Part shown: in pieces, positions 3,935 through 7,573 of the stretch
Position numbering within the stretch: the stretch's first letter is position 1
Layout of the letters: each line of letters opens with the position of its first letter
Source: Patescibacteria group bacterium
GTDB lineage: Bacteria > Patescibacteriota > Patescibacteriia > Magasanikbacterales > UBA922
DNA length: 25,021 nucleotides
Assembly (NCBI GenBank): GCA_038065575.1
Contig: JBBTQT010000136.1
Location: 1 to 25,021, forward strand
Direction of reading: 5' to 3'
Notes under the pieces: model-generated
Databases searched by the model: none
Seen by the model: the letters and a program-made list of their open reading frames with translations, nothing else
What the model was told of the DNA's origin: nothing
Made by a program: the position numbers and the translations under genes

Positions 3935-5871
<1,937 letters not shown>

Positions 5872-5902: not shown

Positions 5903-5929
5903 TTATCACTCTACCACCGAGAGTGATAA
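5903..5929. promoter_or_regulatory. CIRCE-like operator (HrcA site variant)
   Basis: TTATCACTC-N9-GAGTGATAA, against the canonical TTAGCACTC-N9-GAGTGCTAA, 31 nt upstream of groES. Confidence 0.85.
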
Positions 5930-5972
5930 TAGTCAAGACCCCATTTTAGCAGTAGTTTTCACTTTTTGTCAA
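5908..5972 (-). promoter_or_regulatory. Tandem sigma70-type promoters of groESL
   Basis: P1: TTGACA (5972-5967) - N18 - TAAAAT (5948-5943) with a TGn extension. P2: TTGACT (5936-5931) - N17 - TAGAGT (5913-5908) with TGn, overlapping the CIRCE. Confidence 0.65.
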
Positions 5973-6002
5973 GGCTCGTAAAAGACATTTTCCCCGCCAA
6001 AC

Positions 6003-6163
6003 AAAAAAGCCCAGAATAGGTAATGAGCTCGGTATGACGACCTTTACAAGCCAGCGATGCCTGTCAGCGGCGCTAACTTCCTGTGGCGTGCATTCCGTGC
6101 CTATTACCTATTATAGGCTCTTTATTTTCACCCCGCACTTATCAATAGATTATAAACACTAAT
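6003..6163 (-). ncRNA. Candidate structured small RNA, family unassigned
   Basis: Has its own consensus promoter and no ORF. Folds by eye into a rod-like hairpin (AATAGGTAAT 6015-6024 pairs with ATTACCTATT 6103-6112; AAGTTAGCG pairs with CGCTGGCTT) and ends in GGGCTTTTTT. Confidence 0.55.
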
Positions 6164-6169
6164 AAAGTT

Positions 6170-6198
6170 ATTATAGACTACTTGATCATCCCCGTCAA
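6170..6198 (-). promoter_or_regulatory. Near-consensus sigma70 promoter
   Basis: TTGACG (6198-6193) - N17 - TATAAT (6175-6170). Confidence 0.8.
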
Positions 6199-6241
6199 AT
6201 CAAAATTTAAGCTAAAATAAGCCAAAATCAATACCAGTGGA

Positions 6242-7573
6242 CTAACTGTGGACAGTTGGCCTGAAAATGATACCGAGATATGTCGCAAAGCTGAACATTT
6301 CGACCGGCAATGACCAAAAATAGTGATCAAACGATAATCCGAAAATAAGCGGAATGAGCAAAAACAACTCCAAATGCCAATTTTTCTTTGGTTTTATGAG
6401 GCGGAAATACCGTACAAATGAAGCCGACAACCCGAGGAAAATTATCACTCCGACCACCCCCATTTCGGCCGTAAACAACAGCGCCGTATTATGCGCCGGC
6501 TGATACTCCCAGCCCGGTCGGGAATTATCAAGGAGATACGCGGCGACGGTATAATTCCCGCTACCGACACCAAGCCAGGGATGGCGAGCGATAATTCGTC
6601 CTGCTTCGTCATATCCGGAAATTCGTTCTTGAACCGAGGTTATTTCCGAAGCGGAAATTCCCACCAGACGGGTTTTGACAAGAGGTGAGTAAATAATTCC
6701 GCCGATAAAAAAAATTAAAATCGGCAGTGATAAAAAAACAGCAAAGTTTTTTGACAAAGTTTTATTCCATAATCCCAAACCGCCGAACAGCGCGAACGCC
6801 GCCACGAGCATCCCCGCCGCGCTTCGGCTGAAAGAAAAAAATAAAGCGGCGGAAATAATGACAATGAACAAACTTAATATGATTTTTTTGCCTGATTTTT
6901 GAATCGGATTATCGGAAATGAAATAAAACACTGACATGAGTACCAGCGCGAGGTAACCGCCGAAAATATTGGGATGCGCGAATGATCCGTAAGCGCGCAG
7001 CCACCGGCCTGATCCCCCGACAATCGCCGTCCCCGCCTCGGACGGAAGATGCGCGGACAATCCGAGCCAAGGCGCCGGCCAGGTTGTTTGCGCGAGGAAT
7101 TGCGCGATACCCAAAATAGCCGGAATAACGCTCCCCAGCAGGAACCAAAAAATAATTTCTTTTTTAGTAGTCGGTCCGAGATAGATAACGAAAAAAAGCA
7201 AAATGGCTTCCAGTAGATGAATTGAGTGTTGAAAAGCGATTTCCCGAACCGGTGACCAAACGACGGACAGAAATGAATAGAGAATAAAAATCAAAACAAA
7301 CAGCGTGAACACCCGATCCGGCGTCCAAGAAAAAACAATTTTATTCTCTTTGACCGCCCGCGCCACTCGGCGCCCCGACCACCAAAAAAACAGCAAAAAA
7401 ACAATCCAGGCGACGGCCTCCGACAAAAAAAATTGGGTCGCGCCATACTGCCATTTATAACCGTTCAAATACCGTTCGCGAACAATCCAAACCGTTTGCC
7501 AAGGCAAGACAAATAGATACCCCCTTATAAGAACACGAAAAATCGTTTCCAGACTGATTTTTGAAATAAACAT
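6242..7573 (-). CDS. O-antigen ligase / Wzy_C family membrane protein
   Basis: Multi-pass membrane protein with RAYGSFAHPNIFGGYL, SFSRSA, GVGSGNY and PAHN motifs. Confidence 0.85.
   Translation of the reverse strand: MFISKISLETIFRVLIRGYLFVLPWQTVWIVRERYLNGYKWQYGATQFFLSEAVAWIVFLLFFWWSGRRVARAVKENKIVFSWTPDRVFTLFVLIFILYSFLSVVWSPVREIAFQHSIHLLEAILLFFVIYLGPTTKKEIIFWFLLGSVIPAILGIAQFLAQTTWPAPWLGLSAHLPSEAGTAIVGGSGRWLRAYGSFAHPNIFGGYLALVLMSVFYFISDNPIQKSGKKIILSLFIVIISAALFFSFSRSAAGMLVAAFALFGGLGLWNKTLSKNFAVFLSLPILIFFIGGIIYSPLVKTRLVGISASEITSVQERISGYDEAGRIIARHPWLGVGSGNYTVAAYLLDNSRPGWEYQPAHNTALLFTAEMGVVGVIIFLGLSASFVRYFRLIKPKKNWHLELFLLIPLIFGLSFDHYFWSLPVEMFSFATYLGIIFRPTVHS

What the first reader, a model, noticed from the sequence alone, without database searches (positions are those of the whole stretch)
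5987..6198. Stand-alone ~160-nt structured RNA candidate upstream of groESL
Seen: a near-perfect promoter (TTGACG-N17-TATAAT) fires into an ORF-free region. By eye it folds into a ~115-nt rod with bulges and ends in a U-run before the groES promoters. G-U pairs favour the minus strand. Imperfect direct repeats ATTTTC(AC)CCCGC flank the rod (5987-5997, 6124-6136). I could not match SRP, 6S or common riboswitch motifs. Inference: a divergent housekeeping RNA (6S- or SRP-like) or a new CPR sRNA; read-through could link it to chaperonin expression.
Basis: partly seen in the sequence, partly recalled or inferred. Interest (0 to 1): 0.65.

Follow-up and report, generated by a model that had tools for sequence, protein, structure and literature searches.

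The report
New CPR regulatory RNA pairing start codons
The hairpin upstream of groES is a real, independently transcribed small RNA found only in one family of ultra-small Magasanikbacteria, and its never-changing loop is the exact complement of the start codon plus the next six bases of a membrane-protein gene, so it most likely controls translation of that gene and a few others.

Summary
On the minus strand, a TTGACG-17-TATAAT promoter (6198-6170) drives an ORF-free RNA of about 160 nt. Its body is a rod of about 120 nt (6123-6004) that ends in a U-run.

It is a conserved RNA gene. A covariance model finds one copy in 34 of 36 genera of the window's family (Candidatus Magasanikbacteria). It finds none in 24 genomes of sister families or in 150 genomes of the class. 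36 of 42 base pairs show compensatory changes, and Rfam 15 has no match.

It is not 6S, tmRNA, RNase P or 5S RNA, which lie elsewhere in these genomes. It is not SRP RNA either, because the genome has no Ffh or FtsY, a loss already published for many CPR bacteria.

The nine invariant loop bases, GACAGGCAU, complement AUGCCUGUC. That sequence is the start of the SIMPL/DUF541 membrane-protein gene in 28 of 34 family genomes and in 0 of 16 orthologues from RNA-less sister families. Synonymous sites there are frozen, and the motif is enriched only in RNA-bearing genomes.

The best reading is a trans-acting, loop-seed antisense sRNA that occludes start codons. Expression and direction of regulation are untested. 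One genome lost groESL but kept the RNA, so the groESL link is synteny only.

The parts
6170..6198 (-). sRNA promoter: -35 TTGACG (6198-6193), 17-nt spacer, -10 TATAAT (6175-6170)
   Evidence: A TTGACA-type -35 with a 16-18 nt spacer and a -10 lies upstream of the rod in nearly all 35 homologues.
6000..6163 (-). Predicted sRNA transcript of about 160 nt. The start near 6163 is inferred from the -10, and the 3' end falls in the U-run at 6008-6000.
   Evidence: The ends are inferred from promoter and terminator signals and have not been measured.
6004..6123 (-). Rod-shaped body: one extended hairpin with conserved 1x1 mismatches and bulges. The covariance-model match spans 5994-6129.
   Evidence: Fold. 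Covariation: 35 of 42 pairs on the MAFFT alignment and 36 of 42 on the 35-sequence alignment, with 94.6% of cells paired against 34-43% when partners are slid. Model hit of 104.6 bits.
6057..6065 (-). Invariant apical-loop seed GACAGGCAU, the complement of AUGCCUGUC
   Evidence: These nine columns are invariant in 25 of 25 and 35 of 35 sequences, and are kept in divergent variants. Their complement sits at the SIMPL start codon in 28 of 34 family genomes.
6000..6013 (-). Intrinsic terminator tail: the 3' arm of the basal helix (GGGC) followed by U6-G-UU
   Evidence: The U-run is conserved in all homologues.
6136..6177 (+). 21-nt tandem duplication in the 5' leader that includes the -10 box. 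It explains why this genome's leader is longer than in relatives.
   Evidence: family D1. In relatives the -10 ends 0-20 nt before the model start, against 40 nt here.
6207..6253 (-). Upstream control region: two TCCAC-type 11-nt boxes (6232-6253) and a small hairpin GGCTTATTTTAGC (6210-6223) between the wzy-like gene and the sRNA promoter
   Evidence: family D5. Arrays of TCCACA boxes and the TTGGCTnAnnTnAGCCA hairpin recur at this position across genera. Their function is unknown.
5903..5972 (-). Context, not part of the RNA: groES promoter TTGACA-18-TAAAAT (5972-5943) and the CIRCE-like operator TTATCACTC-N9-GAGTGATAA (5903-5929)
   Evidence: inverted repeat I3.
3935..5871 (-). Context: groES (5581-5871) and groEL (3935-5563)
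   Evidence: Pfam Cpn10 at 101 bits and Cpn60 at 262 bits.
6242..7573 (-). Context: upstream Wzy_C (O-antigen-ligase-like) membrane protein gene, syntenic with the RNA in 33 of the 34 RNA loci that returned a hit

Best explanation
This is a new, lineage-specific, trans-acting small regulatory RNA of Candidatus Magasanikbacteria (Patescibacteria/CPR).

Transcription: it is transcribed from its own near-consensus sigma-70-type promoter and ends at an intrinsic terminator formed by the base of its own rod of about 120 nt.

Pairing: the rod displays an apical loop whose nine invariant bases, 5'-GACAGGCAU-3', pair with 5'-AUGCCUGUC-3'. That is the start codon plus codons 2 and 3 of target mRNAs.

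Targets: the main conserved target is the gene for a membrane-anchored SIMPL/DUF541 protein, at G000:C135:5061 in this genome. Other genomes of the family add further genes that start with the same nine bases, mostly for membrane or envelope proteins. These include a Lys-rich single-pass protein, PilC, an AI-2E-like permease and a glycosyltransferase.

Effect: pairing over the AUG of these Shine-Dalgarno-less, AT-rich leaders most likely blocks 30S binding and represses translation, without Hfq.

Shown: the gene, its structure, its strand, its restriction to one family, the complementarity and its co-distribution with the RNA.

Inferred: that the RNA is expressed, that the two RNAs pair in the cell, and that the effect is repression.
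For: 1. Real RNA gene.
- Rod z-score is -4.8.
- 35 of 42 pairs have compensatory changes on an unbiased MAFFT alignment.
- On 35 genera, 94.6% of cells are paired and the covariation score is 0.596, against 0.09-0.13 for slid controls and 0 of 500 shuffles.
- The sense strand scores far above the antisense strand.
- Promoter and U-run are conserved.
- No frame is open across homologues.

2. Independent of its neighbours.
- G029 deleted groESL but keeps wzy-RNA-prfB.
- G001 lacks the upstream wzy-like gene but keeps the RNA.

3. Seed. GACAGGCAU is invariant in all 35 sequences, while overall column identity in the 25-sequence alignment averages 63%.

4. Target.
- In 28 of 34 family genomes the SIMPL orthologue starts with a 10-mer fully complementary to the loop.
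- 19 are perfect. 9 differ by one transition that keeps a G-U pair, including a Pro-to-Ser change.
- 0 of 16 orthologues from the RNA-less sister families f2-f10 have it.

5. Selection at the nucleotide level.
- Codon 2 is CCT in 25 of 25 Pro cases, against 29% CCT elsewhere in the same genes.
- Codon 3 is GTC in 25 of 28 cases, against 15% elsewhere.
- The peptide after residue 5 cannot be aligned.

6. Motif enrichment only where the RNA exists.
- ATGCCTGTCR occurs 3.3 times per genome in the family with the RNA gene removed, against 1.66 for the reversed control.
- In 62 sister-family genomes the figures are 1.60 and 1.61.

7. About 40-50% of the sampled extra hits are gene starts, and they fall into recurrent families.

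8. The loop-start duplex is -17.2 kcal/mol in this genome. No Hfq was detected.
Against: - There are no expression data. Transcript ends and abundance are inferred from sequence signals only.
- Five of 34 family genomes carry the RNA but have a SIMPL start that does not pair.
- In the window's own genome only one convincing start-site target exists. The complement is not enriched genome-wide there.
- A 10-bp duplex of -17.2 kcal/mol is matched by 2.8% of random 60-nt windows. The case therefore rests on comparative evidence, not energy.
- The family genomes are related, so counts such as 28 of 34 are not independent events.
- A shared MPVKK N-terminus could also be a protein-level tag. That would explain part of the motif's recurrence, but not the frozen synonymous sites.
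- Conserved non-canonical positions in the rod (GC[R]C/G[R]GC and a CG/CG helix with a bulge) hint at an additional protein partner.
Confidence: 0.7

Rival explanations
1. It is a protein-binding (RNP-forming or protein-sequestering) structured RNA. The invariant loop and the conserved purine-purine mismatch are protein contact sites, and the complementarity to AUGCCUGUC gene starts is secondary or coincidental.
For: Zero substitutions in nine loop bases across 35 genera is typical of contacts with an invariant macromolecule. The rod carries conserved non-Watson-Crick positions and a conserved CG/CG helix with a bulge, which pairing to mRNA does not explain. The own genome has only one start-site target.
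Against: No candidate protein was identified. The chance that a fixed 9-mer is the exact complement of the conserved first nine bases of a gene is about 1 in 260,000. Target starts also vary only by pairing-preserving transitions, and they exist only in the RNA-bearing family. The two readings do not exclude each other.
Confidence: 0.15
2. It is a cis-acting element of the wzy-groESL region. It would be an elaborate terminator or insulator, or a read-through or thermosensing leader that tunes chaperonin expression.
For: The wzy-RNA-groES order is kept in nearly all RNA loci that returned a hit: wzy in 33 of 34 and groES in 33 of 34. The rod's base doubles as a terminator directly in front of the groES promoter and CIRCE operator.
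Against: G029 has lost groESL and keeps an intact RNA scoring 107 bits, with promoter and terminator. groES has its own promoter and CIRCE operator. Sister family f4 has wzy-groES adjacency without the RNA. A terminator needs neither an invariant loop nor a dedicated consensus promoter. No conserved complementarity to groESL mRNA was found.
Confidence: 0.06
3. It is a highly divergent housekeeping RNA: SRP (4.5S) RNA or 6S RNA.
For: It is a single hairpin of about 120 nt with paired 5' and 3' ends and a conserved apex, which resembles 4.5S RNA in outline. Rfam finds no SRP RNA anywhere in the genome.
Against: - No Ffh or FtsY was found by Pfam, by E. coli Ffh with tblastn and phmmer --max, or by a motif scan.
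- smc abuts rpsP.
- 0 of 121 phylum genomes have an SRP GTPase or SRP RNA, and the best 'hits' are Mur ligases.
- SRP loss in many CPR bacteria is published (PMC8080830).
- The RNA has no GNRA tetraloop, no SRP symmetric-loop motif and no Rfam SRP or 6S match even at E<=10.
- A 6S-like RNA lies elsewhere.
- The RNA is restricted to one family.
Confidence: 0.02
4. It is a tRNA- or rRNA-directed RNA. The loop would pair with the tRNA-Asp anticodon loop (UGACAGG against CCUGUCA) or with 16S rRNA helix 34.
For: Seven bases are complementary to this genome's tRNA-Asp anticodon loop, centred on the anticodon. Eight of nine match E. coli 16S positions 1055-1063.
Against: The family's own 16S reads AUGGUUGCC there, with three mismatches. 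A 7-mer match among 40 tRNAs is expected by chance about one time in five. The invariant CAU is left unexplained, whereas the mRNA target explains all nine bases.
Confidence: 0.02

Closest known systems
Hfq-independent loop-seed sRNAs of Gram-positive bacteria (for example Staphylococcus aureus RNAIII hairpins and RsaE); from general knowledge, not tested here
   Same: It is a stand-alone gene with its own promoter and intrinsic terminator. A conserved, exposed hairpin loop serves as the seed. Pairing is short (9-10 bp) and lies at the translation-initiation region of several mRNAs. No Hfq was detected in the genome.
   Different: There is no sequence or Rfam relationship. The seed is not a C-rich anti-Shine-Dalgarno motif. 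It pairs with the AUG and codons 2-3, so targets share the N-terminus Met-Pro-Val and frozen synonymous sites. The body is one rod of about 55 bp rather than several hairpins.
Envelope-stress sRNAs of Enterobacteria (MicA, RybB, MicL), which repress many envelope-protein mRNAs; from general knowledge
   Same: It has a multi-target regulon dominated by membrane and envelope proteins: SIMPL, PilC, an AI-2E-like permease and single-pass surface proteins. The likely outcome is translational repression.
   Different: Those sRNAs use a 5'-end seed and depend on Hfq and sigma-E. Here the seed is an apical loop, the promoter is sigma-70-like, and no inducing signal is known. The regulon differs from genome to genome.
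Bacterial 4.5S (small SRP) RNA, Rfam RF00169
   Same: It is a single extended hairpin of about 115-125 nt with paired ends, periodic internal loops and a conserved apex, present in one copy per genome.
   Different: There is no RF00169 or RF01854 match, no GNRA tetraloop or symmetric-loop motif, and no Ffh or FtsY in the genome. The RNA is confined to one family.
6S RNA, Rfam RF00013
   Same: It is a rod-like, abundant-looking small RNA with its own promoter.
   Different: It has no large central bubble and no Rfam match. A separate full-length 6S-like RNA exists at G000:C76:11927-12071.

Membership tests
Trans-encoded base-pairing sRNA (functional class) | Independent transcription unit with its own promoter and terminator, and non-coding | tested here: met
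   The promoter is conserved in homologues. The U-run terminator is conserved. No frame is conserved. The RNA is retained when either neighbour is lost.
Trans-encoded base-pairing sRNA (functional class) | Conserved single-stranded seed region | tested here: met
   GACAGGCAU is invariant in 35 of 35 sequences and lies in the apical loop of the covariation-supported structure.
Trans-encoded base-pairing sRNA (functional class) | Complementary site conserved in orthologous target mRNAs and co-distributed with the sRNA | tested here: met
   SIMPL start codon region: 28 of 34 in the family against 0 of 16 in sister families. Synonymous sites are frozen. The motif is enriched only in RNA-bearing genomes.
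Trans-encoded base-pairing sRNA (functional class) | Detected transcript and demonstrated regulation of the target | not testable with these tools
   No transcriptome data or experiments are available.
Bacterial SRP RNA (RF00169 / RF01854) | Helix 8 motif (GNRA tetraloop, symmetric and asymmetric loops) recognised by the Rfam models | tested here: not met
   No hit even at E<=10 on the region, in the whole genome or on 10 homologues.
Bacterial SRP RNA (RF00169 / RF01854) | Partner protein Ffh (M domain) and receptor FtsY encoded in the genome | tested here: not met
   PF02978 and PF00448 are absent. E. coli Ffh finds nothing. smc abuts rpsP.
6S RNA (RF00013) | Rod with a large central bubble that mimics an open promoter, and an Rfam match | tested here: not met
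   The structure has only 1-nt mismatches and small loops. There is no RF00013 hit on it. A 6S-like RNA lies elsewhere.
tmRNA / RNase P RNA / 5S rRNA | Rfam match, and no other copy in the genome | tested here: not met
   RNase P RNA is at C76:876-1322 and tmRNA at C64:638-1036. 5S is present in 5 of 5 family genomes that also carry this RNA.
Cis-regulatory leader or terminator of groESL | Obligate linkage to the regulated gene | tested here: not met
   G029 keeps the RNA after deleting groESL.

The most novel reading that the evidence does not exclude
The RNA may define a lineage-specific 'start-codon address' system. Genes for membrane and surface proteins in Magasanikbacteria would have acquired the same first nine bases (AUGCCUGUC, encoding Met-Pro-Val) so that one abundant rod RNA can hold, release or localise their translation initiation as a group. 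In these bacteria, which lack SRP, Hfq and usable Shine-Dalgarno leaders on these genes, this would be an RNA-based way to coordinate or spatially organise membrane-protein synthesis rather than simple repression of one gene.
Probability: 0.12. Interest if true: 0.85.

Novelty: new member of a known kind. Interest (0 to 1): 0.62.

Why it matters
In the literature searched here I found no regulatory RNA described for the Candidate Phyla Radiation, a large share of bacterial diversity that cannot yet be grown alone. This locus gives a structured sRNA supported by covariation across 35 genera. It also gives a predicted target whose complementarity tracks the presence of the RNA across sister families. 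The prediction can be tested directly in a surrogate host with reporter fusions and compensatory mutations. It also shows a regulon that is recognisable from a shared start of the coding sequence, which constrains the N-termini of the target proteins. The RNA model (R1) could be added to RNA family databases to improve annotation of these genomes.

Tried and rejected
- Rfam at gathering and at permissive thresholds, on the window, the region and 10 homologous loci: nothing.
- BLASTN of the RNA against 60 relatives, phages and plasmids: nothing. The RNA is single-copy.
- SRP RNA idea: rejected because the SRP proteins are absent.
- 6S, tmRNA, RNase P and 5S: found elsewhere.
- oriC idea, raised by DnaA-box-like repeats upstream: rejected. 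GC skew is uniformly negative and all genes lie on one strand across the 25-kb window.
- Pairing of the loop with groESL mRNA: none conserved.
- Pairing with 16S helix 34: rejected on the family's own 16S sequences.
- tRNA-Asp anticodon pairing: only 7 nt, at chance level.
- Flanking direct repeats as target-site duplications: not conserved.
- Remote homologues in sister families: none upstream of their groES, with filters off, and none in 150 genomes of the class.
- Earlier findings of this scan, searched by sequence: nothing.
- The cysteine-desulfurase site with a 12-nt complement (C31:4617) lies inside a conserved protein motif (D-A-C-Q) and was not pursued as a target.
- A whole-sRNA duplexfold was uninformative because it unwinds the rod.

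Full report
**1. What is there**

On the minus strand a promoter, TTGACG-17 nt-TATAAT (6198-6170), matches 11 of 12 consensus positions. It faces a stretch with no conserved ORF.

The RNA from about 6163 to 6003 folds into a single rod (6123-6004) at -57.6 kcal/mol, z = -4.8, and none of 200 shuffles folds as well. The opposite strand folds less well, at -44.1 kcal/mol. The rod is followed by a run of six U.

Next come the groES promoter (5972-5943), a CIRCE-like operator (5903-5929) and groES-groEL. Upstream lies a Wzy_C-type membrane-protein gene.

A 21-nt tandem duplication (6136-6177) that includes the -10 box explains why the 5' leader is longer here than in relatives.

**2. It is a conserved structured RNA**

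BLASTN finds no relatives. Folding the regions upstream of groES in 29 related genomes showed the same rod with the same apical sequence in most of them.

A MAFFT alignment of 25 sequences gave an RNAalifold structure in which 35 of 42 pairs carry compensatory double changes.

A covariance model built from it (R1) gave these results:
- One sense-strand hit of 72-126 bits in 34 of 36 genera of the window's family.
- Antisense scores of only 28-53 bits.
- No hit in 24 genomes of nine sister families.
- No hit in 150 genomes from about 90 other families of the class.

On the 35-sequence alignment:
- 94.6% of cells are paired, against 34-43% when partners are slid.
- 36 of 42 pairs have changes on both sides.
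- The covariation score is 0.596, against 0.09-0.13 for slid controls.
- No shuffle out of 500 reaches the observed values.

That alignment is fitted to the model, but the MAFFT-only result agrees. G-U pairs at several positions fix the strand.

A TTGACA-type promoter lies upstream of the rod in nearly all homologues. Public records name the closest carriers Candidatus Magasanikbacteria. Divergent variants keep the loop.

**3. What it is not**

- Rfam 15 gives nothing at any threshold.
- RNase P RNA, tmRNA and a full-length 6S-like RNA are elsewhere in the genome.
- 5S rRNA is present in five of five well-assembled family genomes that also carry the rod.
- No SRP RNA is detectable, and the SRP proteins are missing too. 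Pfam SRP54 and SRP_SPB give nothing. E. coli Ffh finds nothing by tblastn or phmmer --max. No SRP-GTPase motif set exists in six frames.
- smc directly abuts rpsP, the place where ftsY-ffh sits in many bacteria (the usual gene order is from general knowledge).
- None of 121 genomes sampled from the phylum has an SRP GTPase or SRP RNA. The top 'hits' are Mur ligases.
- A paper states that the two SRP subunits are absent in many CPR bacteria (PMC8080830), so this loss is known.
- The DnaA-box-like repeats upstream do not mark an origin. GC skew and gene orientation do not switch in the window.

**4. Independence from groESL**

The order wzy-RNA-groES holds at nearly all RNA loci that returned a hit: wzy is upstream in 33 of 34 and groES downstream in 33 of 34. 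Three observations show this is synteny only:
- Genome G029 has no groES or groEL. At the syntenic locus the RNA, intact at 107 bits, is followed directly by prfB.
- G001 keeps the RNA without the wzy-like gene.
- Sister family f4 has wzy next to groES with no RNA between them.

The RNA is therefore a gene in its own right that arose in this spacer.

**5. What the loop recognises**

The nine loop bases GACAGGCAU never vary.

Their complement with one more base, ATGCCTGTCR, was counted in 41 family genomes. It occurs about 3.8 times per genome besides the RNA gene, against 1.5 for the reversed control.

Reading 60 of these sites showed that nearly half are gene starts reading Met-Pro-Val, in recurrent families. 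The clearest is a membrane-anchored SIMPL/DUF541 protein (Pfam 179 bits). In this genome it lies at G000:C135:5061.

I then collected the SIMPL orthologue from 50 genomes:
- In the RNA-bearing family, 28 of 34 start with a 10-mer that pairs fully with the loop.
- 19 of these are exact.
- 9 differ by a single transition that keeps a G-U pair. One of these changes Pro to Ser, so pairing is kept where the amino acid is not.
- One more pairs at 9 of 10 positions, and five do not pair.
- In the nine RNA-less sister families, 0 of 16 orthologues have it. They start ATGCCTAAC, ATGGCT and similar.

Evidence for constraint at the nucleotide level:
- Codon 2 is CCT in all 25 Pro cases, against 29% CCT elsewhere in these genes.
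- Codon 3 is GTC in 25 of 28 cases, against 15% elsewhere.
- The peptide after residue 5 differs completely between genera.

A second count across the order gave 3.3 sites per genome in the family (self removed) against 1.66 for the control. In 62 sister-family genomes the figures were 1.60 and 1.61. The excess therefore exists only where the RNA exists.

SIMPL genes have extended -10 promoters 27-70 nt upstream and AT-rich leaders without a clear Shine-Dalgarno sequence. The AUG region is thus the main initiation signal. The loop-start duplex is -17.2 kcal/mol. No Hfq was found.

**6. Mechanism and caveats**

The best-supported model is a trans-acting antisense sRNA whose apical loop pairs with the start codon and the next six bases of SIMPL mRNA. 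In various genomes it would also pair with mRNAs for a Lys-rich single-pass protein, PilC, an AI-2E-like permease, a glycosyltransferase and others. The most likely effect is to block initiation.

What is not shown:
- Expression of the RNA.
- Pairing in vivo.
- The sign of regulation.

Other caveats:
- The genomes are related, so the counts are not independent.
- Five family members lack the SIMPL site.
- This genome has a single convincing target.
- A protein-level role for the MPVKK N-terminus and a protein partner for the rod's conserved mismatches remain possible additions.

**7. Novelty**

The RNA has no relative in Rfam, and I found no description of it in the papers searched. It works like known loop-seed sRNAs, so I class it as a new member of a known kind. 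Its interest lies in being a testable sRNA-target pair in the CPR, and in a seed that reads the first three codons.

Noticed in passing
G000:C148:936-4488 (outside the window); whole genome: The genome has no Ffh, FtsY or SRP RNA, and smc is followed after about 10 nt by rpsP. None of 121 sampled genomes of the phylum has an SRP GTPase or SRP RNA. A paper already says the SRP subunits are absent in many CPR bacteria (PMC8080830).
   Followed up: yes
G000:C76:11927-12071 (+), outside the window: A full-length 6S-like RNA scores below Rfam's cut-off (36.8 against 46.4 bits, E 6e-6). It is probably the real 6S RNA of this lineage.
   Followed up: partly
window 6232-6253, and upstream of the RNA promoter in relatives (e.g. 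L038, L059, L061, L081, L082): Arrays of 2-5 DnaA-box-like 9-mers (TTATCCACA, TGTCCACAG, TTATGCACA) lie about 40-60 nt upstream of the sRNA -35, in one orientation at 11-nt spacing. TTATCCACA occurs 42 times in this genome against about 8 expected. Several copies sit just upstream of other promoters, including SIMPL promoters. There is no GC-skew switch, so this is not an origin. It may be the site of a global regulator.
   Followed up: partly
window 6207-6225 and the same position in relatives: A small hairpin with conserved sequence (TTGGCTnAnnTnAGCCA followed by a T-run) lies between the wzy-like gene and the sRNA promoter in many genera. It is unusually conserved for a plain terminator.
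   Followed up: no
window 5903-5929: A CIRCE variant, TTATCACTC-N9-GAGTGATAA, lies between the groES promoter and groES. The same variant occurs in a related Magasanikbacteria MAG (L096).
   Followed up: no
G029:C26 (L052); also G016, G026, G045: Four genomes of the order lack groES and groEL in their assemblies. In G029 (100% complete by markers) the operon is cleanly deleted between the sRNA and prfB. G016 and G026 also lack the wzy-like gene and the RNA, so the whole block may simply be unassembled there.
   Followed up: partly
G000:C34:1-631, outside the window: The only 16S rRNA fragment in this assembly is interrupted. E. coli-like sequence stops at 196 and resumes at 577, consistent with an insertion in the 16S gene as described for CPR bacteria.
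   Followed up: no
L274, L275, L277, L278, L299, L309 (relatives): A family of proteins of about 180-200 aa, with no Pfam match for the one member scanned (L274). Each has a very Lys-rich N-terminal tail starting MPVKK, a motif like AVDxIPxL, one membrane helix and a Thr/Ser-rich C-terminus. Its start matches the sRNA seed in at least 8 genomes.
   Followed up: partly
Upstream of SIMPL genes (L224-L259): The promoters are of the extended -10 type (TGnTATAAT or TGnTATACT) with poor -35 boxes. The leaders are AT-rich with no clear Shine-Dalgarno sequence.
   Followed up: no
L037, L039, L045, L050, L083 (relatives): In some genera a short extra hairpin (for example CCAGCTTTAGGCTGG) is inserted between the sRNA promoter and the rod. 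It may be a small dispersed repeat.
   Followed up: no
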